Assembly: GCF_035084215.1 (NCBI RefSeq)
Contig: NC_090363.1
Coordinates: 2,666,001 to 2,730,000, forward strand
Length of the DNA: 64,000 bases
Source: Heptranchias perlo
Lineage: Eukaryota
Direction: 5' to 3'
Below the pieces are notes generated by a model. The model was not told the DNA's origin and ran no database searches. It saw only the letters and a program-made list of their open reading frames with translations. Positions 33,301-59,706 of the stretch are shown one piece after another. Numbering within the stretch: the first letter of the stretch is position 1; each line of letters starts with the position of its first letter. The position numbers and the translations under genes were made by a program.

Positions 33301-34777
33301 CAGTGTGACAGTCTGAGTGAGAAAGACGATTAGAGACTTTTTAAATCCGTTCTCGGGGATGTGGGCATCGCTGGCGAAGCTGGCATTTATTGCCCATCCC
33401 TCATCGCCCTGAGAATGAGGTGGTGGTGGTAGGCCTTCTGCAGAGGCCAGTTGGTGTGGGAATGGAGTCCCATGCGGGCCAGACCAATGGAGTGCTTTTG
33501 AAGCGCAGCCACTGTTGTTATGCAGGCAAGCGGGGCCAGACAATGTGCGCACAGCAAGATTCCACAAGCCGCAAATGAGACAAACGGATCAGTTTTTTTT
33601 CGGAGGGGTGAATGTTGGCCAGGGCACCAGGAGATGGCGCGGCAGCCAATGGAGGGGCAAAGGAAATCGAGGATGGGCAAGAGGCCAGAACTGGAGGAGC
33701 GCAGAGATCTCGGAGGGTTGTGGGGCTGGAGGGGGTTACAGAGGTAGGGAGGGGCGAGGCCATGGAGGCATTTGAAAACAAGGATGAGAATTTTAAAATC
33801 AAGGCATTCCCGGACCGGGAGCCAATGTGGGTCAGCGAGCACAGGGGGTGCTGGGAGAACGGGACTTGGTGCGAGTTAGGATACGGGCAGCAGAGTTTTG
33901 GATGGGCTGAAGTTTACGGAAGGTGGAAGATGGGAGGCCGGCCAGGAAGACCATTGGAATAGTCAAGTGTAGAGGTAACAAAGGCACGAATGAGGGTTTC
34001 AGCAGCAGATGAGCTGAGGCGGGGCGGAGACGGGCGATGTTATGGAGGTGGAAGTAGGCGGTCTTGGTGATGGAGCAGATCTGGAGTCAGAAGCTCACCT
34101 CGGGGTCAAATAGGACGCCAAGGTCGCAAACGGTCGGTACATTTTCCTCACAGCGCGCAGTGCCCCGACTGGCGTGTTTTGTTGTTCCCAGGAGTCGCTC
34201 CCTCCCCCCCCCCACACCCCAGAAACGTCTGACTGACCCTCTCTTGCTTTCCTTTCTAGCCGCTGTGAAGCTGGACGCTCAGACAGCCCACGCGAGCCTG
34301 ACTGTGTCTCCGAACGGGAGCAGCGTGAGAGGCGGGGAGCCCTTGACTGTCCCCGACAACCCAGAGCGGTTCGACTCGGTCCCTTACGTATTGGGGTCAG
34401 GAGGGTTCACGGCGGGGAGGCACTACTGGGAGGTGGAGGTGGGCACAAAGACCTACTGGGATGTGGGCGTCGCCAAAGAATCTGTCCGGCGGAAGGGGAT
34501 GCCCAACTTGTGCACCGACGAAGGATTCTGGACCATTGGGCGGGACGCGGAGACATACGGGATAAGCGACGGGAACCGTTCCTCCGTTGCCGTGACTACC
34601 AGGCCTGAGAAGATCGGGGTGTACCTGGACCTGGAGGCGGGGAGGGTCTCCTTTTACAACGCCCACAGCATGTTCCATCTCCACACTTTCAACACCAAGT
34701 TCTCGGAGAGAGTCTACCCATTCTTCTGGCCTGGGTGGGACGACGTAGCGTTGACCATTTGGCCGGTCAAGAACTAG
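6422..34777 (+). CDS. Butyrophilin-like protein, full spliced model (SP-IgV-IgC-TM-12 micro-exons-B30.2), 557 aa
   Basis: 17 coding exons, all GT-AG, all introns phase 1. Lengths 64+363+285+120+12x27+518=1674 nt, open to TAG at 34775-34777. Domain order is diagnostic of the BTN/BTNL family; no specific orthologue assigned. Confidence 0.92.
6556..7445 (+). mobile_element. tRNA-derived Deu-domain SINE with an internal 33-bp array
   Basis: tRNA-like head (GTAGCACTACTCTTGACTCTGAATCAGAAGG), array at 6651-7309, then GATGAGATGTTAAATCGAGGCCCC...AAAAGATCCC core. Confidence 0.8.
7770..10490 (-). mobile_element. Decayed CR1-type LINE ORF2 (endonuclease to RT to 3' end)
   Basis: Fragmented ORFs: [62 protein letters not shown]. 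Confidence 0.92.
10715..11050 (+). mobile_element. Deu-domain SINE (core and tail)
   Basis: Same core as copies at 19030-19480 (-), 20600-20880, 51900-52205, 53765-54120 and 59210-59515. Confidence 0.8.
12258..12620 (+). CDS. BTN-like IgV exon
   Basis: [25 protein letters not shown]...MEVRW...YKGRTEMF...[22 protein letters not shown] is a classic BTN/MOG-type V domain; 363 nt, phase 1-1. Confidence 0.95.
13893..14177 (+). CDS. BTN-like IgC exon
   Basis: GTGRQPLI...[19 protein letters not shown]...GLYTVQS...YTCLVNN is a B7/BTN C domain; ttcccag acceptor; 285 nt, phase 1-1. Confidence 0.95.
14293..14480. repeat. 21-bp minisatellite (CAGGCCCCTCGTGGTTACGG core) with higher-order structure
   Basis: Visible tandem units. 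Confidence 0.85.
14852..14971 (+). CDS. BTN-like transmembrane exon ([40 protein letters not shown])
   Basis: Acceptor tttccag, typical BTN FFP..S.W motif, hydrophobic span followed by basic residues, donor T|GTGAGC. Confidence 0.92.
15100..16033. repeat. 40-bp minisatellite (GTGTAATGGGGAGTCTGGTCACTATAGTCTGATAGTGAGA), about 23 copies
   Basis: Near-perfect tandem array without unique spacers. Confidence 0.97.
16091..16117 (+). CDS. BTN-like micro-exon 1 (YLTFAGGLI)
   Basis: ttttcag acceptor, 27 nt, donor G|GTGAGA. Confidence 0.75.
17857..17883 (+). CDS. BTN-like micro-exon 2 (ENKKLLDEM)
   Basis: gttacag acceptor, 27 nt, donor G|GTGAGT. Confidence 0.85.
17955..18903 (+). mobile_element. L2-type LINE 3' fragment
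   Basis: DDTQLY...LSDIQTW...NVGKTEA; HWLPV and GGRAFS...PKLWNSLP motifs; tail GGCGCTATATAAATGCAAG(TTG)n. Confidence 0.88.
19030..19480 (-). mobile_element. Near full-length Deu-domain SINE
   Basis: Reverse complement of tRNA head, core and L2-like tail. Confidence 0.82.
19903..20600. repeat. 33-bp SINE-derived tandem array with 24-bp deletion variants
   Basis: Visible array, directly continued by the SINE core at 20600-20880. Confidence 0.93.
20978..21004 (+). CDS. BTN-like micro-exon 3 (EQERMNVEQ)
   Basis: cttgcag acceptor, 27 nt, donor G|GTAAGT. Confidence 0.85.
21192..21218 (+). CDS. BTN-like micro-exon 4 (EYKRLRKEI)
   Basis: gtttcag acceptor, 27 nt, donor G|GTAAGA. Confidence 0.88.
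   Translation, partial: SIKDYARK
21245..21855. repeat. About 38-bp purine/G-rich minisatellite (GGGTACAGAGAGGGGAGATAATCCTGGGGAAAGG)
   Basis: Visible tandem array. Confidence 0.93.
22155..22181 (+). CDS. BTN-like micro-exon 5 (EEVKATGKL)
   Basis: ttttcag acceptor, 27 nt, donor G|GTGAGC. Confidence 0.85.
22878..23475 (+). mobile_element. CR1-type LINE 3' fragment
   Basis: [19 protein letters not shown]...[13 protein letters not shown], ending in a TTCTATGATTCTAT tail. Confidence 0.93.
23744..23770 (+). CDS. BTN-like micro-exon 6 (EREKLRKEF)
   Basis: tgtccag acceptor, 27 nt, donor G|GTAAGA. Confidence 0.88.
23955..25695. repeat. 63/68-bp tandem repeat (GGGAGTGTTTGATGGGACAGTGTAGAGGGAGCTTTACTCTGTATCTAACCCTGTACCTGCCCT)
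   Basis: Visible array with two length variants. Confidence 0.97.
26522..26548 (+). CDS. BTN-like micro-exon 7 (EIERGAFKA)
   Basis: tttacag acceptor, 27 nt, donor G|GTATGT. Confidence 0.85.
27878..27904 (+). CDS. BTN-like micro-exon 8 (EREKLQSDF)
   Basis: gttacag acceptor, 27 nt, donor G|GTGAGT. Confidence 0.88.
28001..28990. repeat. 29-bp minisatellite (TCAGTGATTGCTCTCACTGGGTGTGTTTC)
   Basis: Visible array; each unit contains the inverted repeat CAGTGA/TCACTG. Confidence 0.97.
28995..29238. mobile_element. Palindromic MITE inserted in the 29-bp array
   Basis: Homologous to 2321-2554, reverse orientation. Confidence 0.82.
29240..29790. repeat. GC-rich 29-bp minisatellite (CGCCTCGCGGCGAACGCGCCCGCTGGCTG)
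   Basis: Visible array, alignable without gaps to the 28001-28990 unit. Confidence 0.95.
29985..30011 (+). CDS. BTN-like micro-exon 9 (ADEKKVTTA)
   Basis: cttacag acceptor, 27 nt, donor G|GTACGT. Confidence 0.82.
30420..31525. repeat. C-rich 24/28-bp low-complexity array (CCTCCCTCCGCTGCCGCGCTCCC)
   Basis: Visible array grading out of a CT-rich tract. Confidence 0.93.
31695..31721 (+). CDS. BTN-like micro-exon 10 (EYQKLQTEF)
   Basis: cttgcag acceptor, 27 nt, donor G|GTGAGT. Confidence 0.88.
32620..32646 (+). CDS. BTN-like micro-exon 11 (EQWRPLAVA)
   Basis: cttttag acceptor, 27 nt, donor G|GTATGT. Confidence 0.85.
33187..33213 (+). CDS. BTN-like micro-exon 12 (EWDRIQTNA), pre-PRY linker
   Basis: poly-T ccag acceptor, 27 nt, donor G|GTACGA. 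W......A linker typical just before B30.2. Confidence 0.88.
33640..34135 (-). mobile_element. L2-type LINE fragment
   Basis: [29 protein letters not shown]; reverse complement of the family at 17955-18903. Confidence 0.85.
34260..34777 (+). CDS. BTN-like B30.2 (PRY-SPRY) terminal coding exon
   Basis: VKLDAQTAH...PDNPERFD...[10 protein letters not shown]...GFWTI...[16 protein letters not shown]...VYPFF; acceptor tttctag at 34259. Confidence 0.97.
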
Positions 34778-39580: not shown

Positions 39581-39675
39581 AATTCCAATTGTTCTTAAAC
39601 GAACTCTACAAAACGTTGTTAAACCATTTCATTGATTTTTTTTTAGAAAAATATAAATAATGATGATATTGATTT

Positions 39676-39956
39676 GTGACATAACGTCACTGTTGCTGTA
39701 TCTTCGACCAGTCACAGCGCAGAATGTTCAGACGTGACCATGATTGTAGTAATTACTGAAACCATAGCAACAGAATCTCCCAACATCATCACAGCTGGAC
39801 AGTGTAATAATCACTGAAACCGTGGCAACGGAATCTGACGTCAGCACAGCTGGACAGTGTAATAATCACGGAAAGCACAGTGATGGAGTTAACTGATGTC
39901 ATTTTCACAGCACTCTACAGATCTAAAGACAGAAAGAAGCTTGACTGGTTCTTGGG
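39676..39956 (+). promoter_or_regulatory. Putative CRE/RFX-type promoter and non-coding first exon
   Basis: Palindromic GTGAC-N5-GTCAC (39676-39690), X-box-like CCATAGCAAC (39762) and CCGTGGCAAC (39820), perfect CRE TGACGTCA (39836-39843), donor GG|GTGAGT at 39956/39957. Confidence 0.5.
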
Positions 39957-41941
39957 GTGAGTTTCACTGAGATTGCGTGAGTCTCGCTAATTTAGAATCG
40001 GATTTTAGCATCTTTCTGACCGTATCCCAAATCTCACAGAAATCTCTTCTTTTATTTCCCGAGTCCCCAGCTTGTGTAGCTTGAGTTACAACTTTTAAAT
40101 ATTCTGTGGTCCGATTTCCACTGAAGAGGAACAAAATTTGTCGGGATTCAACCTTTTTTATGGCGTGGGTACAGTTTCAGTGTGTATATGTAAACCGTGC
40201 GATTTCAGGGCTAGATCTGATAATGACATAGGAACAGGAGTAGGCCATTCAGCCCTTCGAGCCTGTTCCGCCATCCAATTAGACCATGGTCAATCTGTAA
40301 CTTAACTCTATCTACCCACCTTGGTTCCGTAACCCTTAACACCCTTGGCTAACAAAAATCTATCCATCTCAGTCTGGAAAGCTCTGACCCCCAGCATCCA
40401 CGGCCTTTTTGGGGGAGAGAGTTCCAGATTTCCACTCCCCTTTGTGTGAAGAAACGCTTCCTGACATCACCCCTGAACGGCCTGGCTCTAATTTTGAGGT
40501 TATGTCCCGCTTGTTCTGGACTCCCCCCACCAGAGGAAATAGTTTCTCTCAATCTACCCCATCAAATCCTTTAATCATTAAACACCTCAATTAGATCACC
40601 CCTTAATCTTCTATATTCGAGGGAATACAAGCCCAGTCTGTGTAACCTGTCCCCATAATTCAACCCTATTAGCCCCTAAAAAATGAATCCCAAAATCACG
40701 GTTAATGCCAATTAAATCTGGGAATGCCATGTTGGCACACCATAGTTCTGGGATGGCAGTGGCACCTGATTGGCACGGGGAGCACTTAATCCTCTCTCTG
40801 TACTGACGGGCAGTATTGACTTGGATCATGGGTTACCGGCTTATGTACAGGCAGCTGAGCAAAGGGCCATGGGGGAGGAGGCTTTGAGGGACCAACTAAC
40901 AACACAGGCCAACTCCTTATTAGCGTTAGACTTTGTGACGACCCAATGCTTTATTCACTTACTTGGGGTGTCACAAAGCCTTTCACAGCCAAACAATTAC
41001 TTTTGAGAGGCAGTCACCGTTGTAATATAGGCAAACACGGATAACCGGAGGACACCAGATTTTACTAGTCTTGGGGAAATGGGCCTCCATCAAATTAAAA
41101 TTTGAGAAAACAAAAACATTAAAAAAGCTATTAATAAAACACCCAGTGGCCGAAATACTTCAACTCTGCCAATCGATGAGACTGTAACAGTTCAGAGTTT
41201 CTCCAACATCTTTTCCTCGTGTTAACAGCTCAGTAAAGCAGGTTGCAAGGGTTTAGAATTCCCTGTTCCTGAGCTTGGGGCTAATGGATTGCCTGGGTAC
41301 AGCCAATACGGGAAAATGGGACAGGGAAGGAGCAATAGAGCACGCCTGACTTCTTCACCATTAACGGACGGAAACTCAAGTGAATTCCCTCGCCCCTACA
41401 AACTTACCCCCTACGTCTTTTTTCTCTTCGTTGCACCGACTTAACATTGGCCAGGTCTGACCTATTAACCCGCGTTCATGGCCAATTGCTTACTGGGGGA
41501 ATATATCTGAAACCCACCATATTCTCCAGTCAATCTGTAAGACAATATCAACTTGCCTTTAACGTAGTAAAACGTCCCAAGGCGCTTCACAGGAGCGTGA
41601 CCAGACAAAAAAAATTGGCTCTGAGCCAAAGGAGGAGACATTAGGTCAAGTGACCGAAAGCTTGGTCAAAGAGGTAAGTTTTAAGGAACGTCTTAAAAGA
41701 GGAGAGGTGGAGACAGAATATTCAAAACAACTAACATGGAATTCCCTCCCTAAACCTCACCACCTCTCTCTCCTCCTTTAAGATGCTCCTCAAAACCTAC
41801 CTCTTTGACCAAGTCCTAATATCACTTTTATGGTGTCAAAATTTTGTTTGATAACGCCCCTGTGAAGCGCCTTGGGACATTTTACTACGTTAAAGGCACG
41901 ATATAAATGCAACTTCTTGTTATTGTTACAACCTTTCTTTA

Positions 41942-42640
41942 GTTTACCATCGCCGAATCCCCCACCATCAACATCCTGGGGGTCACCATTGACCAGAAAC
42001 TTAACTGGACCAGCCATATAAATACTGTGGCTACGAGAGCAGGTCAGAGGCTGGGTATTCTGTGACTCACCTCCTGACTCCCCAAAGCCTTTCCACCATC
42101 GACAAGGCACAAGTCAGGAGTGTGATGGAATACTCTCCACTTGACTGGATGAGTGCAGCTCCAACAACACTCAAGAAGCTCGACACCATCCAGGACAAAG
42201 CAGCCCGCTTGATTGGCACCTCATCCACCACCCTAAACATTCACTCCCTTCACCACCGGCGCACAGTGGCTGCAGTGTGTACCATCCACAGGATGCACTG
42301 CAGCAACTCGCCAAGGCTTCTACGACAGCACCTCCCAAACCCGCGACCTCGACCACCTAGAAGGACAAGAGCAGCAGGCACATGGGAACAACACCACCTA
42401 CACATTCCCCTCCAAGTCACACACCATCCCGACTTGGAAATATATCGCCGTTCCTTCATCGTCACTGGGTCAAAATCCTGGAACTCCCTTCCTAACAGCA
42501 CTGTGGGAGAACCTTCACCACACGGACTGCAGCGGTTCAAGAAGGCGGCTCACCACAACCTTCTCAAGGGCAATTAGGGATGGGCAATAAATGCCGGCCT
42601 CGCCAGCGACGCCCACATCCCATGAACAAATGAAAAAAAA
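41942..42640 (+). mobile_element. LINE 3' fragment ([23 protein letters not shown] family)
   Basis: High-identity copies at 52706-53632 (-) and 57560-58538 (-); A-rich tail. Confidence 0.88.
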
Positions 42641-42644
42641 TATA

Positions 42645-43650
42645 TTGTAAAAAGCTGAGGCCCAAGCACTGATCCCTGCAGCACCCCACTAGTTACAATC
42701 TGCCAACCCGAAAATTACCCGTTTATTCCTACTTTCTGTTTTCTGTCCATTAACCAATCCTCAAACCATGCTAATATATTACCCCCAATCCCATGAGCCC
42801 TAATCTTGTGTAACAACCTTTTATGTGGCACCTTATCAAATGCTTTTTTTGAAAATCCAAATATACGACATCCACTGGTTCCCTCTTATCTATCTTGCTA
42901 GTTACACCCTCAAAAAACTAATAAATTTATCAAACACGATTTCCCTTTCATAAAACCATGTTGACTCTGCCTAATCATTATGATTTTCTAGGTGCCCTGT
43001 TACCACTTCCTTAATAATAGATTCTAGTGTTTTCACTATTACCGATGTCAGGCTAACTGGCCTGTAGTTCCCTGTTTTCCCTCTCCCTCCTTTCTTGAAT
43101 AGCGGGGTTACATTTGCTACCTTTCAATCCACAGGGACCGTTCTAGAATCTAGAGAATTTTGGAAGATCACAACCAATGCAGCCACTATCTCTGCAGCCA
43201 CCTCTTTTAGAACCCTAGGATGTCGGCCATCAGGTCCAGGGGATTTGTTGGCTTTTAGTCCCAATAATTTCTTCAGTACTTTTTCTTTACTAATCTTAAT
43301 TACTTTAAGTTCCTCACTCTCATTAGCCCCTTGGTTCCCCACTATTTCCAATGTGTTTTTTGTGTCTTCTACTGTTAAGACAGATACAAAATATTTGTTT
43401 AACGTCTCTGCCATTTGCTGATTCCCCATTATAATTTCTCCTGTCTCAGCCCCTAAGGGACCCACATTTACTTTTGCTAATCTCTTCCTTTTTACATGCT
43501 TGTAGAAACTCTTACAATCTGTTTTTATATTTCTTGCTAGTTTACTCTCCTATTCTATTTTCTCCCTTTTTATCAATTTCTTGGTCATCCTTTGCTGATT
43601 TCTAAAACACTCCCAATCCTTAGGCCTACTACTCTTTTTGGTAACTTTTA
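42645..43650 (-). mobile_element. CR1-type LINE ORF2 internal fragment
   Basis: KANKSPGPDGRHPRVLKEVA...IFQNSLDSRTVPVD. Confidence 0.88.
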
Positions 43651-44217
43651 AATAAGAACATAAGAAATAGGAGCAGGAGTAGGCCAATCGGCCCCTCGAG
43701 CCTGCTCCGCCGTTCAATAAGATCATGGCTGATCTGATCCTAACCTCAAATCTAAATTCATGTCCAATTTCCTGCCCGCTCCCCGTAACCCCTAATTCCC
43801 TTTACTTCTAGGAAACCTCTTCTTTTAATCCAATACTATCCTTAACTTCTCTAGTTAATGCTGGTTAGAATATGGAACTCAATACCACAAGGAGTGGTTG
43901 AGGCGAATAGCATAGATGGATTTAAGGGGAAGCTGGATAAACACATGAGGAAGAAAGGAATAGAAGGAAGTGCTGATAGGGTGAGAGGAAGAGGGGAGGG
44001 AGGAGGCTCGTGTGGAGCATAAACGCCGGCATAGACCAGTTGGGCCGAATGGCCTGTTTCTGTGCTGTAGACGCAATGTAACTCGATGGCGTCCACCTTC
44101 CCTCCTCATTGTAAAATTCCCTGAGACATCTTGACGCACGTTAACACAAATGCAGGTTCCTGTTACTGTTGCAAAATTAATTTTGACTCTACTGTTTCAC
44201 TTTCACAGCCTGAAGCA

Positions 44218-44625
44218 ATGAGACGATTAAAGCAGAAGCGAAAGCTTCCGAGGAGACTGTCACGGAGACAATTACCGGTCAAGTTATCCCTCCCAGTCTG
44301 GAGGCTGCCTCTGAGGGGTGCACTCATGAAGCCGTTGCTTCGAATGAGAGGGCAGTTGCCCGTGAAGCCGCTGCTTCCGGCCCGGTGGCTGCAGGTGAAG
44401 GGTTCACGCCTGAAGGCGGATAAGAGGTCAGCACTGATGAAAGTAGAGAAGAGGCTGCCTGGAAGGAATTCACCAGCCAAGGTAGCGAGGAAAGTGCCCG
44501 TGAGGTGTTTCCCTGAGAACAGGTCACTTGCACAGAGGAGGTCAATGTTAAAGAACGTCAGTCAGGAGCCATCAGTCCCGGCAAGGAGATCACCAGCCAG
44601 CATAAATCTACTTTTTGCTTCGTAA
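44218..44625 (+). CDS. Uncharacterised 135-aa highly basic Arg/Lys/Pro/Leu-rich protein (protamine-like or CENP-A-tail-like)
   Basis: Acceptor tttcactttcacag at 44208, ATG in gcaATG context 9 nt into the exon, 408-nt ORF not built from TE or simple repeat, TAA, then AATAAA at 44693. By my count 23 R + 14 K versus 4 D/E. Confidence 0.62.
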   Translation: MRRLKQKRKLPRRLSRRQLPVKLSLPVWRLPLRGALMKPLLRMRGQLPVKPLLPARWLQVKGSRLKADKRSALMKVEKRLPGRNSPAKVARKVPVRCFPENRSLAQRRSMLKNVSQEPSVPARRSPASINLLFAS

Positions 44626-47600
44626 ATAGCAACAAAGCATATGTGGCCTCTATTGCCCCATTAATTCTAATTGTTATTGCATTACACAGAGGAATAAAAG
44701 CTTACAATACACAAAGTTACATGATATTCTGACTAGTTTAACTAGATATATCATAGCATTAATCTTAGCTGCAGAGAGCAACCCCACCTTATAATGCCCA
44801 CTACAGACGCAAGGAAGCATAGGTACTAGAGATTAGGTACGAGGAAGTCCAATAAGGCCATTGATTTTAATCTCCCAAATTTCATTTCTCCAATGAGTTC
44901 AATAATCTTCTTAATTTGGAACCCAAGTCCCGGTTTCACCCTTGCAGCTTTGAAGAAAGACTTTCCATTTGTCTGACGTAGAACAACAACAACAATCTGC
45001 ATTTATATAGCGCCTTTAATGTAGTAAAACGTCCTAAGGCGCTTCACAGGAGCGATTATCAGACAAAACTTGACACCGAGCCGCATAAGGAGATATTAGA
45101 CCAGGTTGGTCAAAAGGGCAGGCTTTAAGGAGCGTCTTAAAGGAAGAGAGAGGGGTAGATGCGGAGAGATTTAGGGAGGGAATTCCATAGATTAGGGCCG
45201 AGACAGCTGAGGGGGCCTTCTCTCTCTGTAGAAACACACCTCAGATATCTAACCCCAGATGATTTAGCTAGAGGTTGGCGAGAACCACGGCTCGCAGGCT
45301 CCCAGGTGATGAAGGCCACTACCAGAATATTAACTGGCTAAAACCATGTCACTTACCACACAGAACCATTGATTTGCTTCCCGGTGTTTGTCCATCTCCA
45401 ACCACTCTACTGGTTTAGGTCATTGACTTGCAGGATTATCTGGAGCCAAGTAGGAAAAAATGGCAGCCCTCCCCTTCCCCATTTATCCTTCCAGGTCCCA
45501 TCAATGAGCCAGTCATTGACAGTTATCTCGGAGTATTACAGATCTACCTGGCTCAGGTATTTGGATGGCTAAATCTGGCCCAGATCATTCACTTGGTTCC
45601 AACCTGGCACCATTGGATGTGTCATCCTGGAGCGAATTCGATCCCAAGGAGACCCTAGGTAGGTTGTAAGATTAATGCCGTCAACACCATTGACCGTTTG
45701 ATTCTTCTCTGTTGCTTCTCCTCCATGGCCTGTCCCTCCTGGCACTACCCTCTGATTCCACGCCTATCTCCCCCAATGCGGGCACTTCTCCTCATTGAAA
45801 GGTATCTGCTCATGGCCAAAGAGTCACCTGAGATGTGCCGCAGAATCCCAGCCTTACATCGAGTTACATCGAAACTACAGCACAGGAACAGGCCATTTGG
45901 CCCAACTGGTCCATGACGGTGTTTATGCTCCACACGAGCCTCCTCCCACCCTACTTCATCTCACCCTACAGCATATCCTTCTATCCCTTTCTCCCTCGTG
46001 TGTTTATCTAGCTTTCCCTTAAATGCATCTATGCTATTCGCCTCAACCACTCCATGTGGTAGCGAGTTCCACATTCTCACCACTCTTTGAGTAAAGAAGT
46101 TTCTCCTGAATTCCCTATTGGATTGATTAGTGACTATTTTATATTTATGACCTCTAGTTTTGATCTCCCCCACCCCATCTCCGTCTACCCCAGCGAACCC
46201 TACCATTATCTTAAAGACTTCTTTCAGGTCACATGGGGTTAGTGTTCACACGTACGATGCTGACATCCAAACTCCACCTCTCTGCCACGACTATTGGCTT
46301 CAAGGCTGTAGTTTGGCAAGAAGAAGAAGTTGCATTTATAAAAGTGCCTTTAGTATCGAAAACATTCCAAGACGTTCTACACACGATGGAGGAAGGATCA
46401 GCAGGAGTAGATGAAGGAAGGAATGGACACCAAGCCATGTGGTTGAGGAGATTAGGAAGGGGGTGCTGAAAGCTTGGTCATGCAGGTGTATTTTTAAGGT
46501 TTTAAAGGCGGGGAGAGAAATGGGAGGGGCAGACGGGTTTAGGAATGTACCTTCAGGGAGAAGGGTTCAGGTGACGGAAGTCTCTGCCACCAATGGTGAG
46601 GTGGGGGAAGGGGAGGGGTTGCCCAGGAGGCCAGAGTTGGAGGACCAAAGTGTGCGGGGGTTTGGGGTGGGGGGAGTTTATAATGCTAGAAGAGATTGCA
46701 GAGATAGGGTAGGATGAGGCCATGGAAGGATTTGAAGTCAAGGGTAAGGAGTTTAAAATGAATATGCTGGGGGCCACAGGGGGTCAATATAGATCAATGA
46801 GCATGGGGATCATGGGCAACTGGGTGGACTCCAAGCAGCTAAGCTTTGGACAAGTTTAGACTCTAGACTATGGAGGATGAAGGCCAGCAAGGGGGACAAT
46901 TGAGAAATCGAGATGACAAAGCATCACCAAGTCTTGGAGGAACCATTGTTTCTTCCATCTCAAAATGGCCAAAACTCAAACCATCTTTTCATTTCTCATC
47001 CTCCCCTCTGTGGTCCAGGCCCCACTTCCATCTGTCTCCCTGGCCACCTGCTTGGGCTGTTCAGAGGGTCTGTAACGTCAGGATCTAGCTTTCCCCTCAG
47101 CTGACCCTTTATACCCCACGTTTGGTCAGTGGCATTTTTCACCTCAAGAGTATTGGCCACTTATGACCCGACCACCGATACCACACCCAATGTCTTTACC
47201 ACATTCAATGGATCCAAGAATTTACGCTCACTTAGATTACACACTCCCTTTATCTCAACTCTTGCCAAGCTTCACTGGTCCCAAAGTACTGATTTCAAAA
47301 CTCCTTGTCCTCATCTTCAAACCCTTCCATAGCCTCATCCCTCTCCAGCTGAGCAATCTCCTCTGACTGTATATCCCAGGATGTACAGCCCCTGTTCTAA
47401 ATCTTCGAATTCAATCTCTTGCATTTAATCTTAGAGCTATGGCCCCCTCGTTTCTTGGCCCCTCAACTTCTGGGTAAAGTCTACTCCCGTCTACCATGTC
47501 CCATCCTTTCACCATTCTGAACCTTTCTATCATATCGCCTCATAATCTGCATCCGTCGGAGGAAGAAGAAGGCCCAGTTTCTGAGGTGATCATCTTTTTT

Positions 47601-47706: not shown

Positions 47707-47906
47707 NNNNNNNNNNNNNNNNNNNNNNNNNNNNNNNNNNNNNNNNNNNNNNNNNNNNNNNNNNNNNNNNNNNNNNNNNNNNNNNNNNNNNNNNNNNNNN
47801 NNNNNNNNNNNNNNNNNNNNNNNNNNNNNNNNNNNNNNNNNNNNNNNNNNNNNNNNNNNNNNNNNNNNNNNNNNNNNNNNNNNNNNNNNNNNNNNNNNNN
47901 NNNNNN
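47707..47906. other. N-run (others at 11250-11404, 11721-12173, 16459-16611, 16682-16866)
   Basis: Unresolved or masked sequence; each run adjoins low-complexity repeats. Confidence 0.99.
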
Positions 47907-51730: not shown

Positions 51731-52334
51731 GTCCTATCTGTACCTACCTGTTGTGCTCATTTCCACAAGTGGGAAATTGCCTTGCAGTGTTTAAATTTGA
51801 TGCTGTGCGAAATCACTTTCTCTACAAACTGTAGGGTTCAAGCACAACAATTGAATGGATTAAAACATTTTATTTGATGTATCCTAAATTTCTGTGTAGT
51901 ACTGTTGGAGGTACTTTCGGACAAGATGTTAAAATGAGGCCCCGTCTGTCCTCTCAGGTGGATATAAAAGATCCCATGGCACTATTTCGAAGAAGAGCAG
52001 GGAAGTTCTCCGGTGTTTTGGGCCAATATTTATCCCTCAACCAACATCACTCAAAAATAGATTATCCGGTCATTATCACATTGTTCTCTATGGGATCTTG
52101 CTGTGCCTAAATTGGCATTATGACAACTTCAAAAGTATGTTATTAGCTGTAAAGCTGTTTGGGACGTCCTGAGGTTGTGAAAGGCGCTATATAAATGCAA
52201 GTTGTTTCTTTATTCCAAGTGATTCATGTAAGTGAAGCACTTGGAGATAAGGCGCTACATAAATGCAATTTGTTTTTTCCTTTCCCAAACGTCTGCTTAA
52301 TTTTTTAAACATTTAATCGTAGACTGCAACGATA

Positions 52335-52488
52335 ATGAGCGGGAGACCTCACGGAGCTGCCAGGCGGAGAGGCCCAGCACCAAAGAGGAGATCGCCACTG
52401 AAGGCACCACCTGTAAGATCACCGCAAAGGAGGAGGTCACCAGTGAGTCCCCACAGGAGACCCCCAACCAGCCCCCGACAAAGACCAC
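52335..52488 (+). CDS. CENPA: CENP-A first coding exon (N-terminal tail, [12 protein letters not shown]...SPRQRP)
   Basis: Acceptor AG at 52321-52322, ATG at 52335, donor C|GTAAGA (phase 1) compatible with the next exon. Confidence 0.85.
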
Positions 52489-55400
52489 GTAAGACACTTT
52501 TTTCCACACACTTTTTTTTCTCTCTCTCTCTTTTAATCTCCATTCCTAACTAATTGAGATGACTATACCATTTCCAAATGCGATTTTGCAGTAGAAACAA
52601 ACAATTCCGATATGGGATTATTTTCTGATAATCTTGGCGTGAAGAAAGTTTTTGGGAAAGGGATGTGACAGACATGGTCTATGTAAAAGTTTTACATCTA
52701 GAATGCATCCTTGAGAAGGTGGTGGTGAGCCGCCTTCTTGAACCGCTGCAGTCCGTGTGGTGAAGGTTCTCCCGCAGTGCTGTTAGGAAAGGAGTTCCAG
52801 GATTTTGACCCAGCGACGATGAAGGAACGGCCGATATATTTCCAAGTCGGGATGGTGTGTGACTTGGAGGGGAACGTGCAGGTGGTGTTGTTCCCATGTG
52901 CCTGCTGCTCTTGTCCTTCTAGGTGGTAGAGGTCGCGGGTTTGGGAGGTGCTGTCGAAGAAGCCTTGGCGAGTTGCTGCAGTGCATCCTGTGGATGGTGC
53001 ACACTGCAGCCACTGTGCGCCGGTGGTGAAGGGAGTGAATGTTTAGGGTGGTGGATGGGGTGCCAATCAAGTGGGCTGCTTTGTCCTGGATGGTGTTGAG
53101 CTTTTTGAGTGTTGTTGGAGCTGCACTCATCCAGGCAAGTGGAGAGTATTCCATCATACTCCTGACTTGTGCCTTGTAGTTGGTGGAAAGGCTTTGGGGA
53201 GTCAGGAGGTGAGTCACTCGCCGCAGAATACCCAGCCTCTGACCTGCTCTTGTAGCCACAGTATTTATATGGCTGGTCCAGTTAGGTTTCTGTCAATGGT
53301 GACCCCCAGGATGTTGATGGTGGGGGATTCGGCGATGGTAATGCCGTTGAATGTCAAGGGGAGGTGGTTAGACTCTCTCTTGGACATAGTCATTGCCTGG
53401 CACTTGTCTGGCGCGAATGTTACTTGCCACTCATGAGCCCAAGCCTGGATGTTGTCATGGTCTTGCTGCATGCGGGCTCGGACTGCTTCGTTATTTGAGG
53501 GGTTGCGAATGGAACTGAACACTGTGCAATCATCAGCGAACATCCCCATTTCTGACCTTATGATGGAGGGAAGGTCATTGATGAAACAGCTGAAGATGTT
53601 TGGGCCTAGGACTCTGCCCTGAGGAACTCCTGAGGAAATCAAGATTGTAAGCCAATGAAGCCACGGGATAAAGGGAGAAGAGGGATACGGGTTGGAGAAA
53701 AGGTGGAAAGTGGTCCCGCAACACGATCTGAATGATGGGGTGAACTGGATGGACTTTCTCACGTGCATTACTGAGGGAGTGCTGCACTGTCGGAGGTGCC
53801 GTCTTTTGGATGAGACATTAAACTGAGGCCCCATCTGCCCTCTCGGGTGGACATAAAAGATCCCGTGGCCACTATTTGGAAGAGGAGCAGGGGAATTCTC
53901 CCCTGGTGCCCTGAGCCAATAGTTATCCCTCAACCAACATCGCTGAAAAACAGATTTTTGGATCATTATCACATTGCTGTTTGTGGGATCTTGCTGTGCG
54001 AAAATTGGCTGCTGCATTTCCTACATTACAACAATGACCACACTTCAAAAGTACTTCATTGGCTGTAAAGCGCTTTGGGACGTCCTGAGGTTGTGAAAGG
54101 CGCTGTAGAAATGCAAGATCTTTTTCTTTTCTTGTATTCTTTTTCCTTGTAAAACATTCTTTGCTACCTCACTATCCTATATAGATTTGGTATATTGATC
54201 CAATTGACAGTTAAAAATTGATTTTATTCTCTGGGTGTAAACGTGAGAAGGGTGATGCTGACAATTTTATAAGCAAATCATTGAATAACCAACATCATTT
54301 AAAGGAGATGGCATCTCAAACGGTAAGTCCATTCTCCTGGATGTATCCCATGGAAACCTTTGTCGGCTAAACTATTCTGTGTACTTGACCAACTGTTACT
54401 TGAAAATATGTTACACGGAGGTTAATGGATTCCTGTATTAGGTGATCGAAATCTTGGCTTGATACCTAGTATAGTTAAGAATGCATCTGTCTGCAGGAGA
54501 ACAGCCGTCACCACGCCGTAGAAGGTTCCGGCCAGGTACCAGGGCCTTGATGGAGATACGCAAATACCAGAAATCTACAGGCTTGCTGCTCCGCAAACTG
54601 CCATTCAGCAGACTGGTGAGTTATAATTAAGAGCTGGTGCCAAATGATAGTGTTAAACAATAAGCGAAAGTATTCTCGGGCTCTCTGCTGATTGTGTTGT
54701 GTGTTCACCTGCAACGTGTAGAGGCTGCTGGCTAGCTCTCAAGCAGTAACCCATTTCAAGAGTCCAGGTGGCACGTAAGCAGGTGAAAGGTGCTATGTAA
54801 ATGCAAGTTCTTTCTTTTTCTTGTATTCTTCTGCCTTGTAAAACATTCTTTGCTACCTCACTATCCTATGTAGGTTTGGTATATTGATCCATTTGACAGT
54901 TAAAAGATTGATTTTATTCAGTGGGTATAAACGTGAGGTGGGTAATGCTGACCATTTTATAAGCAAATCATTGAATAACCAACATCACAAGCTCACTTAA
55001 AGGAGATGGCATCTCAAACGGTAGGTCCAGGTGGCAACTCAAGCTGGAAGAGATATAGTTTTGTTACAGTACTTACCATGGAGTTGACAGTTTCCTGACA
55101 AGATTTGCTCTGGTTGATTGTGGAGGGGAAGAATATTAGGGACAGGAGGAGGCCATTCAGCCCCTCGAGCCTGCTCCAACACTCAATTAGAGTGTGACTG
55201 ATCTATATCTCAACTTCCTTTACCCGCCTTTGCTCCATATCCCTAATGAAAATCTATCCATCTCAGTCTTGAAAGTTTCAATTGACCCCCTGCATCCACA
55301 GCTGTTTCTTGGTTGGGGGGGGAAACAGGAGAGGGGGAAAGGGAAGAGTTTTCCAGATTCCCAATACCCTTTGATCACTTTCAATCCAAAGGGTAGGATT

Positions 55401-58400
55401 GGACACGGTCAGTACCAATCAATCAACCATCACTTTCTCCCACCCTTGGAAGCAGAATCCGTAAAAACTTTTAAGAGGGAGATGGATAAATGTTTGGAAA
55501 AGGAAAATCTGTATGAGGAAAGGAACGGGACTAGGTGGAGAGCTCTTTCAGAGAGCTGGCAGAGGCATGATGGGTCGAATGGCCTCCTGTTGTGCTGCAC
55601 AGTCCTACGATTCTATAAATCCAATGACCAGAATACCTCAAGTGTAGAGGTAACTGTCTGCCCTTCCACAGTTGAGTAGCTGAGGGCCGAGTGCAGAAAA
55701 GGATCGTAGGAACAAAGGTCTACTTTACATGAGCAGTCTTGAAAGAGCTGACCATTCATTTTCACTTTCATTACTGTTGCAGCATTTTATTTAAGCGTAG
55801 TTCCCCCTGGTGACATCAACAGGGGAATGGGCTGTGAAGACTTACTGAGGCACTAGGTGCTTGGAACTAATGTTCCCTTTGAACTCATTCTTTCCAGGTG
55901 CGTGAAGTGGCTGTTCGGTTCACTAGAGGCATCCACTACAATTGGCAAGCCAGTGCTTTGTTGGCATTGCAGGAGGTAACGGCTGACTAAATTTATGAAA
56001 TGCATTTGTCCTGATTTATAGACTATCTATCTAGAGAAACGACTTTTTTTAATCTAACTGCTTATTTCTGCATGGTATTTTTTTTTCCTTCACAAATGCA
56101 TAAACTACCCAAAAGAGCGAGGAAAATTAATGAGAAATTCAAAATATCTGAGAGGCCATAATAATGTTGGGAAGCGCACAGCCAAGCAGCAGCGAGGCAA
56201 AATCGACACGAGCAGGACTGAGGAATCACACAAGGGATTGGAGAGATAATGGCCGTAACAAGAACCAAAGCCCATTATCTGCAAGTACCGCTAACACCAA
56301 GAGAGAATGAAAGGGCTGTAGAGAAAGGGGGGGGGATAAGAGAGAATGGAAAAAACAAATAGTCGTGACGTCACTGAAAGAGGCAGAATGACGTCCTGCC
56401 AGTTCTGCCTATCTCGTGGCCATTGGAAACGGAGGTGTTGGGGCTGGGGGGGGGCTAATGTTCGTTCCCAACGGCAACCCACCTGTGATCGATCCTGATA
56501 AAGAAGTGACCATTTAAAAAAAAAAAAGAGAATCAACTCTTCGGTTGAAACAGACCACACCTCCCCTCCTCTAACAGTGTGACAGGGTCCCAGTCTGAAT
56601 TTCCTGCCCCCCACCCCCGGGGAGTGCCCCATAAATGACCTGGGCGCCTGCCCCTTTTATGCAAATAGCCCCACGCTGTGATTCGGGATAGGGTGAATGG
56701 GGGGAGGAAAGCTGGTAGCCTGAAGTACGACCTCCCTGCATTTCTGGCGGCAGATCGTAAGGAATTTGAGGACTGCATCTTCATGTATCACTAACTGATA
56801 TGTGTAGAAGGAAGTCGCTGTAGTGCGCCCACCCCCTCCCCTCCCCATGCCAGGTTGGTTCAGCCCGCCTTCATTGCAACTGGAGTGACGGGCGTGGTAG
56901 GAAGTTCCTGTCCCACGAGGGCGGGGGAGGCGGTCTTTGAAAGTGATCAGGAGCACTGAGCTACAGCCTGCTCATTGCAACCACATTCAAACTGGAGCCC
57001 TCGAAGAGAGACAGCAGTGTCGTGATTGCAATACCATCAGTGCCCAGTAAAGGACACTGGTGAACTGTTGTGCTTTACTGATAGTCAAGTAATCTGCTTC
57101 CTTTCCTTTTGGTATGTTGCTGTTTTGAGAGGGCCCTTTTCCCGTTGTCCTACAGCAACCTAACCTGGGGTGGAGTGTAAATCCATAAGGACCAGCATTA
57201 CAGATCCTCATATAATCGATTAGCTGACCATTCTAATTATATAAAAAAACATGTAATAAAAGCATCACATGTTGGAAACATAGTGAACGTGCCACCATCT
57301 GGAATTCAGAAATGAAGCTTTAGATTCTATTGCAGGGACTATAGCCCAACTTTAAAAGCATTTTTTTTTTTACAGATGCTTTGTATTTCCAGCATTTCCC
57401 CTTTATCTTCCAGCCGTGCTAGGGGGTGGCCAACCCTCCAGGATTGCCCTGGAGAATCCAGGATTTAATCACCTGGATGCTGCTGCCAGCAAAACACCCG
57501 GGAGAAAAAAATCATAGGGGCATTAAATCAAAATAGCGTATTTTCTTAAATTTTTTAAATTTGTTCACGGGATGTGGGCATCGCTGGTGAGGCCGGCATT
57601 TATTGCCCATCCCTAATTGCCCTTGAGAAGGTGGTGGTGAGCCGCCTTCTTGAACCGCTGCAGTCCGTGTGGTGAAGGTTCTCCCACAATGCTGTTAGGA
57701 AGGGAGTTCCAGGTTTTTGACCCAGCGACGATGAAGGAACGGCGATATATTTCCAAGTCGGGATGGTGTGTGACTTGGAGGGGAACGTGCAGGTGGTGTT
57801 GTTCCCATGTGCCTGCTGCTCTTGTCCTTCTAGGTGGTAGAGGTCGTGGGTTTGGGAGGTGCTGTCGAAGAAGCCTTGGCGAGTTGCTGCAGTGCATCCT
57901 GTGGATGGTACACACTGCAGCCACATTGCGCCGGTGGTGAAGGGAGTGAATGTTTAGGGTGGTGGATGGGGTGCCAATCAAGCGGGCTGCTTTGTCCTGG
58001 ATGGTGTCGAGCTTCTTGAATGTTGTTGGAGCTGCACTCATCCAGGCAAGTGAAGAGTATTCCATCATACTCCTGACTTGTGCCTTGTCGATGGTGGAAA
58101 GGCTTTGGGGAGTCAGGAGGTGAGTCACTCGCCGCAGAATACCCAGCCTCTGACCTGCTCTTGTAGCCACAGTATTTATATGGCTGGTCCAGTTAAGCTT
58201 CTGGTCAATGGTGACCCCCAGGATGTTGATGGTGGGGGATTCGGCGATGGTAATGCTGTTGAATGTCAAGGGGAGGTGGTTAGACCCTCTCTTGTTGGAG
58301 ATGGTCATTGTCTGGCGCGAATGTTTCTTGCCACTTATCAGTCCAAGCCTGGATGTTGTCCAGGTCTTGCTGCATGCGGGCTCGGACTGTTTCATTATTT

Positions 58401-59706
58401 GAGGGGTTGCGAATGGAACTGAACACTGTGCAATCATCAGTGAACATCCCCGTTTCTGACCTTATGATGGAGGGAAGGTCATTGACGAAGCAGCTGAAGA
58501 TGGTTGGGCCTCGGACACTGCCCTGAGGAACTCCTGCAGCAATGCATTTGTTTATTAGTGCTAAAACTATTGGCGATGTGGAATAAAGGCTGTTTGACAG
58601 GCCAGGATGGTTGGAGGCAGATCATGTGATGAAACCTCCAGAATTGCGTCCAACCAGAACTGCCAACCCTACTCCCTGCCTTTGTAATCTTGAAGGATAG
58701 GGTCAACCCATGATCAGCATTAAAAATGCTCTAAATTCCTGTGGATCAGCTGAGTGTTTTGAATAAGTTTGGCAAGTTCTGATGGTGTAAGCGGTTATGG
58801 GACTGGATCAACAACCCAGAGGTTGTGGGTTCACCCTACCGCAGCAAGCTGTGCGGCCGAGTTCAATAAATCTGCCGATTTTTGTTGTCCAGACCTGAAG
58901 AGAATGATTATGGAACCCGCCAGATTGTTGCCGAAATGTTGCTTCAGGGAATGGAACCTGCCGTCCCTTACCTGGTCTGGCCTACACGCCATTCCAGTCC
59001 CACGCTCTGTGGTTGGCTCTTAATGCCCACTGCGGTGGCCCAGGAGTCATAAAGGACAATTGCCTGAAGGAGGTGGCCCACTACCACTGTCGCTGGGCAA
59101 TGAACATCGCCCACATCCCACCAGAAAAGAACAAATAAAAAGCCAGCCAGTGTTCTCTGGCGGCACTTTTGTTTCCAATGCTTCAGAACCCTTGTGGTTT
59201 CATGTACCAATATTTGAGACGTTAAACTACCTTCTCGGGTGGGCGTAAAAGATCCCATGGCACTATTTCGAAGAAGAGCAGGGGAGTTGTCCCCGGAGTT
59301 CTGGCCCAATATTTATCCCGCAACCAACATCACCAAAACCAGATGAACCGGTCATTATCACATTGCTGTTTGCGGGACCTTGCTGTGCACAAATTGGCTG
59401 CCGCGTTTCCTACATTACAGCAGTGACCACACTTCAAAAAAAAAAGGAACTTAATTGGCTGTAAAGTGCTTTGGGACGTCCTGAGGTTGTGAAGGCACGA
59501 TATAAATGCAAGTTCTTCCTTTTTAAAATCCCATCATAACACCTCGAATTGTTCTTCCTCTTGTTCCCCAGGCCGCGGAGGCATTTCTGGTGCTTCTCCT
59601 GGAGGACGCCTACCTCTGCACCCTGCACGCCAAGAGAGTCACCCTATTCCCGAAGGATGTGCAGCTGGCTCGGAAGATAAGGGGCATACAAGAAGGTCTG
59701 GGCTAA
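52335..59706 (+). CDS. CENPA: Centromere protein A (centromeric histone H3 variant), spliced model, 161 aa
   Basis: Exons 52335-52488, 54497-54615, 55898-55975 and 59572-59706 (486 nt, phases 1, 0, 0). Histone fold with CENP-A loop 1 ([10 protein letters not shown]), [16 protein letters not shown] and a C-terminal IQEGLG matching the vertebrate LEEGLG CENP-C-binding tail. Confidence 0.95.
52706..53632 (-). mobile_element. LINE RT 3' fragment in a CENP-A intron
   Basis: [25 protein letters not shown]. Confidence 0.9.
54497..54615 (+). CDS. CENPA: CENP-A coding exon 2 ([40 protein letters not shown])
   Basis: H3-family alphaN/alpha1 motif; ctgcag acceptor, GTGAGT donor. Confidence 0.96.
55898..55975 (+). 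CDS. CENPA: CENP-A coding exon 3 ([26 protein letters not shown])
   Basis: CATD loop 1 with RG insertion and the W-Q motif diagnostic of CENP-A; 78 nt. Confidence 0.96.
57560..58538 (-). mobile_element. LINE RT 3' fragment nested within a TIR element in a CENP-A intron
   Basis: Same family as 52706-53632; flanked by the two halves of the GGCCAACCC/TGCCAACCC element. Confidence 0.88.
59572..59706 (+). CDS. CENPA: CENP-A last coding exon ([44 protein letters not shown])
   Basis: ttccccag acceptor; alpha2-L2-alpha3 of the histone fold; TAA at 59704; AATAAA at 60050. Confidence 0.97.

What the first reader, a model, noticed from the sequence alone, without database searches (positions are those of the whole stretch)
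39676..44720. Unannotated basic-protein gene upstream of CENP-A with a spermatid-type promoter: a possible protamine-like protein derived from the CENP-A tail exon
Seen: an exon at 44209 (acceptor, ATG at 44218, TAA at 44623, AATAAA at 44693) encodes 135 aa with about 27% R+K and only 4 acidic residues. It is built from degenerate short motifs (RRQLPVK, RGQLPVK, WRLPLR, KRLPGR, RKVPVR, RRSPA). Its layout mirrors CENP-A coding exon 1, 8 kb downstream: ag|cctgaagcaATGAG vs ag|actgcaacgataATGAG, GAGACTGTCACGGAG vs GAGACCTCACGGAG, and AGGAGATCACCAG vs AGGAGGTCACCAG (RRSP); both end in C-GTAA. A CRE plus X-box cluster and a donor sit 4.3 kb upstream. Established: CREM and RFX2 drive post-meiotic genes, and protamine-like proteins are usually traced to histone H1. 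Inference: a duplicated, expanded CENP-A tail exon became a stand-alone germline chromatin protein, which would be an unusual origin. The nucleotide similarity is short and could reflect composition alone.
Basis: partly seen in the sequence, partly recalled or inferred. Interest (0 to 1): 0.85.

Follow-up and report, generated by a model that had tools for sequence, protein, structure and literature searches.

The report
Unannotated shark basic protein beside CENP-A
A shark genome holds a spliced gene, conserved in relatives and missing from the protein databases searched, for a small, highly basic protein next to the centromere histone gene CENP-A; it likely acts in sperm-forming cells and may be an expanded copy of CENP-A's tail, but neither its tissue nor its origin is shown.

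Summary
The gene is real. A contig from a public run joins 39956 to 44209 at GT-AG, and contigs end near the AATAAA. The 135-aa ORF (37 R+K, 4 acidic) is single-copy and has no relative in three searches. Orthologous contigs from two other organisms keep the frame, with dN/dS 0.07 and 0.39. A sawfish CENP-A gene model has absorbed pieces of this ORF at its start, which places an orthologue upstream of CENP-A in a ray. It is not a transposon. The two novel claims stay open. (1) Germline role: the CRE/RFX cluster is unusual, but no run has a tissue label. It fails the protamine-like definition (no winged helix). (2) CENP-A origin: a shared in-frame RRSP-[LV]-K-type unit is present, and CENP-A exon 1 ranks first to third among 88 basic windows. 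But p-values run from below 0.002 to 0.84 by method, and an arginine-rich H1 scores similarly. Odds about 45%.

The parts
39682..39901 (+). Promoter/5' motif cluster: three CRE-like 8-mers (39682, 39836 perfect, 39894) and two X-box-like 14-mers (39758, 39816). The two X-boxes are copies within one ~58-bp tandem duplication.
   Evidence: of 830 300-nt tiles (window included), 2 have >=3 CRE-like sites and 1 has >=3 RFX half-sites; the relaxed full X-box count is not enriched (82 of 830). Single-copy. Consensus patterns recalled; function untested.
39840..39956 (+). Non-coding first exon; true start at or upstream of 39840. Holds two upstream ATGs (39883, 39896).
   Evidence: contig of run X1 has 116 loose letters before 44208; the 30 shown match 39926-39955 exactly and uniquely in the window. 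Donor GTGAGT. uORFs of 28 and 21 aa.
39957..44208 (+). Intron, 4252 nt, GT-AG, largely filled with repeats
44209..44712 (+). Terminal exon (3' end approximate)
   Evidence: Contigs of three organisms end at 44693 (X4), 44706 (X8) and 44712 (X3). Contig ends are only a weak hint of the cleavage site.
44218..44625 (+). CDS of a 135-aa basic protein (P0001), likely disordered, built of degenerate [RK][RK]-x-[LS]P-[VL]-[KR] units
   Evidence: Purifying selection. Single-sequence model pLDDT 55.8, pTM 0.13.
44693..44698 (+). AATAAA poly(A) signal
47707..47906 (.). 200-N run followed by a G-rich repeat; the likeliest hiding place of CENP-A's own promoter and first exon (inferred)
   Evidence: No GC-rich, CpG-rich N-free window between 44720 and CENP-A coding exon 1.
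52323..52488 (+). CENP-A first coding exon (ATG 52335), encoding the R/S/P-rich tail; candidate donor of the basic-protein exon
54497..59706 (+). CENP-A coding exons 2-4 (54497-54615, 55898-55975, 59572-59706), histone fold
   Evidence: (PF00125 on exons 2 and 4)

Best explanation
This is a spliced, single-copy, two-exon gene, conserved under purifying selection in related fishes, for a 135-aa very basic protein that is likely disordered, likely switched on in male germ cells through CRE and RFX sites, and likely binds DNA or chromatin during spermatid remodelling, as a transition-type basic protein rather than a true protamine. Shown: exon structure, splice, frame conservation, selection, absence from the databases searched. 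Inferred from a database gene model: the same position upstream of CENP-A in a ray. Inferred only: tissue, nuclear role, and origin. For origin, I slightly prefer a tandem duplicate of CENP-A's tail-coding exon that lost the histone-fold exons, gained a poly(A) site and grew by internal repeats (about 45% on its own).
For: Splice. Selection: organism C 24 synonymous vs 7 non-synonymous changes over 44221-44418 (dN/dS 0.074, Fisher 2e-10); organism B 14 vs 17 over 44227-44622 (0.39, p 0.016). No listed change makes a stop in this frame; the +1 frame gains stops in both organisms. Listed indels: C nets +12 and 0 within the CDS; B shows -15, +3, -1, with one row not shown. Ray: aa 9-21 and 31-54 of a sawfish CENP-A model match the ORF in frame 0 and frame +2 (2 and 0 of 1000 shuffles reach the scores); in a 17-column block, 6 of 7 differences fall on ORF third positions by minimal change, 5 of them silent. 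Composition: pI about 12, 27% R+K. Promoter cluster rare among 830 tiles; RFX2 sites cluster near the start of spermiogenesis genes and CREM drives haploid-phase genes (PMC4498915, passages). Origin: adjacent, same strand, ATG 9 vs 12 nt after an acceptor; all shared k-mer hits in frame; CENP-A exon 1 was matched or beaten by 0, 2 and 1 of 87 basic control windows under three scoring schemes.
Against: No tissue label for any run. Contig depths over the exon are only 4-13; this is a poor measure, but bulk sperm basic proteins are among the top testis transcripts (PMC3750513, passages). RFX2 and CREM control largely separate gene sets, and RFX factors also serve cilia generally. dN/dS of 0.07 and 22 leucines fit a sequence-specific interaction better than charge neutralisation (my inference); only two S/T-P sites. 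Origin: protein-level p 0.02-0.84 against four CENP-A tails, tail HMM p 0.27; DNA p 0.022-0.081 and from below 0.002 to 0.27, depending on gap costs; the low values come from very gappy alignments and from parameters chosen after the fact. H1 tails reach similar k-mer counts (up to 28 vs 20), and a window of an arginine-rich H1 scores 274/197/190.5 vs 285/190/194.5. The near-invariant N-terminal block of the four CENP-A tails has no clear counterpart in the ORF.
Confidence: 0.4

Rival explanations
1. Same gene, independent origin: it arose de novo or from another basic sequence by repeat expansion, and resembles the CENP-A tail only because both use AGR-rich arginine codons and RRSP-type motifs.
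For: SPKK/SPKR-type repeats recur in unrelated sperm histones and in CENP-A (PMC5011920, passages).
Against: Tandem position, same strand and similar exon layout; CENP-A exon 1 is still at or near the top of 88 windows; no better donor found (H1 proteins p 0.12-0.94; arginine-rich H1 p 0.57).
Confidence: 0.5
2. The protein is not a chromatin packer but a disordered adaptor or flagellar/ciliary protein whose repeated basic-hydrophobic motifs dock on a partner; the RFX sites reflect a cilium or sperm-tail programme.
For: Strong purifying selection; 22 Leu, 15 Pro, nine [LV]P sites vs two [ST]P sites; contigs in 11 runs of 3 studies listed, 6 runs laid, all at low depth; RFX factors control ciliogenesis.
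Against: pI about 12 with an N-terminal K/R cluster typical of nuclear or nucleolar proteins (established knowledge, not tested); no family hit.
Confidence: 0.3
3. The exon is an alternative last exon of the CENP-A locus: the 39840-39956 first exon also splices to CENP-A's exon at 52323.
For: CENP-A coding exon 1 needs an upstream exon, and no CpG-rich promoter is visible between the two genes. In organism C about 70 nt near 39734 is covered at depth about 100 vs 9.7 for the ORF (width inferred from the bin mean).
Against: A 200-N run followed by G-rich sequence lies between them. The sawfish model has a Gly/Ala/Arg-rich stretch between the ORF pieces and the CENP-A start, as expected from a read-through of CENP-A's own GC-rich first exon (inference). 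No listed GT in the ORF exon gave a joint in the five contigs.
Confidence: 0.15
4. A transposon fragment or a chance ORF in a non-coding transcript.
For: Repeats fill the intron up to 44088; the G+R-rich composition keeps several frames fairly open.
Against: One match in the genome at protein and DNA level; contig depth about 10 vs up to 1e6 over the repeats; no Pfam hit at E<=1; frame-specific purifying selection.
Confidence: 0.02

Closest known systems
Protamine-like (PL) sperm nuclear basic proteins (PMC13148410, passages; PMC5011920, passages)
   Same: Short, K+R-rich, largely disordered; candidate germline promoter
   Different: PLs derive from the H1/H5 family and have a winged-helix head. 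This protein has no linker-histone hit, no globular model, no similarity to this genome's H1 genes, and much Leu/Pro.
Dogfish sperm proteins: scylliorhinines Z1-Z3/S4 and spermatid intermediate proteins S1/S2 (names and properties recalled; no paper found)
   Same: Same animal group; a transient spermatid basic protein is the role proposed here
   Different: No match in the protein searches or to Pfam protamine families; longer, with one cysteine and no poly-Arg runs. Their sequences were not compared directly.
Germline-specialised CenH3 duplicates, Drosophila and mosquito Cid paralogues (PMC8200288, PMC7306699; search listing only)
   Same: Duplication at a CENP-A gene with a proposed germline role
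   Different: Those are whole centromeric histone paralogues; here there is no histone fold, at most a tail-only derivative.
SPKK/SPKR-tailed sperm H2B and H1 variants (PMC5011920, passages)
   Same: Repeated short basic-proline motifs used to compact sperm DNA; such repeats also occur in CENP-A tails
   Different: Those motifs stay attached to a histone; here most units read LP or VP rather than SP.
De novo spermatid chromatin gene atlas of Drosophila (PMC8445463; search listing only)
   Same: Lineage-restricted gene proposed to act in spermatid chromatin
   Different: Unrelated lineage; a precedent for the independent-origin rival only.

Membership tests
Protamine-like (PL) SNBP | Winged-helix globular domain of H1/H5 type | tested here: not met
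   No Pfam hit at E<=1; single-sequence model has one short helix, pTM 0.13, low confidence
Protamine-like (PL) SNBP | Descent from histone H1 | tested here: not met
   No similarity to 10 H1 ORFs and one other basic ORF from H1 loci (p 0.12-0.94) or to the arginine-rich H1 (p 0.57)
Protamine-like (PL) SNBP | Disordered region rich in Arg and Lys | tested here: met
   37 of 135 R+K, pI about 12; disorder predicted only
SNBP of any type | Testis-restricted, high expression in spermatids | not testable with these tools
   Runs are coded, without tissue; contig depth cannot rank expression
SNBP of any type | Present in spermatid or sperm chromatin | not testable with these tools
   Needs mass spectrometry or antibodies
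True protamine (P-type) | Very short, with arginine runs and a much higher arginine share (threshold recalled) | tested here: not met
   135 aa, 17% Arg, longest Arg run 2; no protamine Pfam hit
CENP-A/CenH3 paralogue | Histone-fold domain | tested here: not met
   Stop at 44623, and contigs run through it to the poly(A) region; PF00125 only on CENP-A exons
CENP-A tail-exon derivative | Sequence homology to CENP-A coding exon 1 beyond composition | tested here: inconclusive
   p from below 0.002 to 0.84 by method; rank 1-3 of 88 basic windows; arginine-rich H1 comparable
CENP-A tail-exon derivative | Ancient tandem position next to CENP-A | tested here: met
   Window layout; sawfish model P0005 carries ORF pieces ahead of CENP-A. 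Ray DNA itself not seen.
TE ORF1/gag | Multicopy, TE domain | tested here: not met

The most novel reading that the evidence does not exclude
Before sharks and rays split, the tail-coding exon of the centromeric histone CENP-A was duplicated, shed the histone fold, came under a CREM/RFX spermatid promoter and expanded into a free-standing sperm chromatin protein: a sperm nuclear basic protein born from a centromeric H3 tail rather than from linker histone H1.
Probability: 0.22. Interest if true: 0.82.

Novelty: new variant of a known kind. Interest (0 to 1): 0.55.

Why it matters
At minimum it is an old, conserved shark-and-ray gene that the searched databases lack, and that has corrupted one public CENP-A gene model. 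If it proves to be a spermatid chromatin protein derived from the CENP-A tail, it adds a second route to sperm basic proteins beside the usual H1 route. It would also show one way to relieve the germline-versus-soma conflict at CENP-A: duplicating only the fast-evolving tail. Both points are directly testable with testis RNA-seq and a multi-species alignment.

Tried and rejected
No RNA holder listed on record: all 11 runs are 'RNA?' guesses; I use the GT-AG junction, not the label. Homologue searches for P0001: 37 candidates, none at E<=0.1, lengths 74-237 only; none at E<=0.001 among 1.84 billion representatives; exact sequence not in the collection; no usable Atlas hit, which shows neither absence nor novelty. 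The N-terminal 126 aa of the sawfish model found only itself. Laying 39600-44800 was swamped by repeats and its joint table was cut. In one search the CENP-A exon limits were mis-set; corrected. Substitution tables were cut: 31 in-CDS rows for B, pooled from two runs, and 42 in-CDS rows of 65 total differences for C; dN/dS for C therefore uses 44221-44418 only, and changes near indels may be misaligned. The X8 contig runs into intron-like sequence, so it is unspliced RNA or DNA. A possible dead CENP-A-type donor read through as the C-terminal residues appears in one alignment, but it is post hoc and not counted. Control windows are redundant (H1 copies, shifted frames), so ranks are not p-values. 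Protamine_3 found nothing in the genome. Rfam gave only sub-threshold hairpin hits inside a repeat. A search with the sequence right of the N run gave only G-rich repeat hits. The bacterial promoter scan is irrelevant here. No fold search was run because the model is low-confidence. Literature searches showed no paper on this gene in their listings; most subscription journals and older dogfish protein chemistry are not covered, and no supplements were read.
Full report
Observation. The protein has 135 residues, 23 Arg, 14 Lys, 22 Leu, 15 Pro and 4 acidic residues, pI about 12. Its internal repeats are real: no codon shuffle of 300 matched the self-similarity at any of four word sizes, and the five repeat diagonals listed are in frame. 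The gene 8 kb downstream is CENP-A: four coding exons give a 161-aa protein identical to a database entry named centromeric protein A, whose closest listed relatives are from rays. The ORF itself is not in the collection.

It is a transcribed, spliced gene. A 341-nt contig of run X1 matches 44208-44432 with no differences and carries 116 further letters at its 5' end; the 30 shown match 39926-39955 exactly. That gives a GT-AG junction from 39956 to 44209. It rests on one contig in one run, and the genome shows no second copy that could mimic it. Contigs from three organisms stop at 44693, 44706 and 44712, at or just past the AATAAA, a weak hint of the 3' end. The spliced leader holds two upstream ORFs.

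It is protein-coding and old. Contigs of organisms B and C cover the exon with 33-34 and 65 differences. The listed indels keep the frame in C; for B one indel row was cut. Of the listed in-CDS changes, 30 of 42 in C are silent (12.7 expected; none of 20,000 random placements reached 30) and 14 of 31 in B (9.1 expected, p 0.04). dN/dS is 0.074 for C over 44221-44418 and 0.39 for B. A sawfish CENP-A model is 295 aa long because it begins with pieces of this ORF: residues 9-21 match in frame and 31-54 match the +2 frame, in order. In a 17-column block of the +2 piece, 6 of 7 differences map by minimal change to third positions of the real frame, 5 of them silent. So a ray very likely has the orthologue upstream of CENP-A, in the same reading frame; I saw only the protein model, not ray DNA. 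No relative was found among 5.8 billion proteins of similar length, 1.84 billion representatives, or Pfam. A transposon origin is excluded by single copy number and selection.

Promoter. Three CRE-like and three RFX half-sites sit in 300 nt; among 830 tiles, which include this window, 2 and 1 reach those counts. The full X-box pattern with two mismatches is not enriched (82 of 830), and the two X-boxes are one duplicated unit. The contig starts at 39840, so the perfect CRE overlaps the transcribed part. In mouse, RFX2 sites lie close to start sites and CREM drives haploid-phase genes, but the two control largely separate sets, and RFX factors also run ciliogenesis (PMC4498915, passages). The cluster makes a male-germline or ciliary programme likely; no run has a tissue label.

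Origin. For a CENP-A-tail duplicate: adjacency and orientation, ATG 9 vs 12 nt after an acceptor, and a shared unit of the RRSP-[LV]-K kind with every shared k-mer hit in frame. CENP-A exon 1 was equalled or beaten by 0, 2 and 1 of 87 basic control windows. Against: dinucleotide-shuffle p 0.022-0.081, codon-shuffle p from below 0.002 to 0.27, protein p 0.02-0.84 and tail-profile p 0.27. The best values need cheap gaps and come from parameters tried in turn. H1 tails and an arginine-rich H1 reach similar scores. I put the duplication at about 45%, mostly on position and layout.

Mechanism. Most likely a germline-expressed, likely disordered basic protein that binds DNA or chromatin transiently in spermatids (0.4). 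It is not a PL protein by definition, since PLs derive from H1 and carry a winged helix (PMC13148410, passages), which is absent here. Strong purifying selection, the Leu/Pro pattern and low contig depth keep a motif-docking or flagellar role open (0.3). Sharing a first exon with CENP-A is possible because CENP-A's promoter is not visible, but a 200-N run probably hides it (0.15).

What is known. Eight paper searches listed nothing on this gene. I read passages of PMC13148410, PMC5011920, PMC4498915 and PMC3750513, and saw only listings for PMC8200288, PMC7306699 and PMC8445463; no supplements were read. The dogfish scylliorhinines and S1/S2 proteins are recalled, not looked up. Earlier scan notes held nothing on this sequence or place; one note pointed to the arginine-rich H1 that I used as a control.

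Verdict. A real, unannotated, conserved basic-protein gene of sharks and probably rays. The germline role is plausible and the CENP-A origin is about even odds. Interest 0.55; the combined novel reading has probability about 0.22 and would merit about 0.82.

Noticed in passing
P0005 (database model XP_051899458.1): The sawfish CENP-A model is a chimera: about 125 extra N-terminal residues made of this gene's pieces, one in the wrong frame, plus probable CENP-A leader sequence.
   Followed up: partly
window 39600-39773: Run X8 (organism C) covers about 70 nt near 39734 at depth about 100, ten times its depth on the ORF; the stretch is single-copy here. Possibly a conserved upstream exon.
   Followed up: partly
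window 39883-44221: An upstream ORF of 28 codons in the spliced leader would end in a TGA overlapping the main ATG (length, end by arithmetic); a second has 21 codons.
   Followed up: no
window 13874-14248 and 34070-34774: Butyrophilin-like Ig-C and PRY/SPRY exons upstream.
   Followed up: no
L007:5894-6094 and L007:8953-9216: Exons that read like a LIM-homeobox gene (LHX6/8-like by recalled resemblance) about 26-29 kb beyond the window end.
   Followed up: no
L025, minus strand, H1 C-terminal tail: A shifted frame of an H1 tail is open and reads as protamine-like arginine runs, the frameshift route proposed for protamine origin (recalled).
   Followed up: no
L047 (G000:C42:5011500-5015500): A 231-aa arginine-rich H1-like ORF (41 R, 21 K) with an acidic end, on the same contig.
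   Followed up: partly
window about 54100-54330 and 54790-55030: A roughly 230-nt duplication flanking CENP-A coding exon 2, seen by eye.
   Followed up: no
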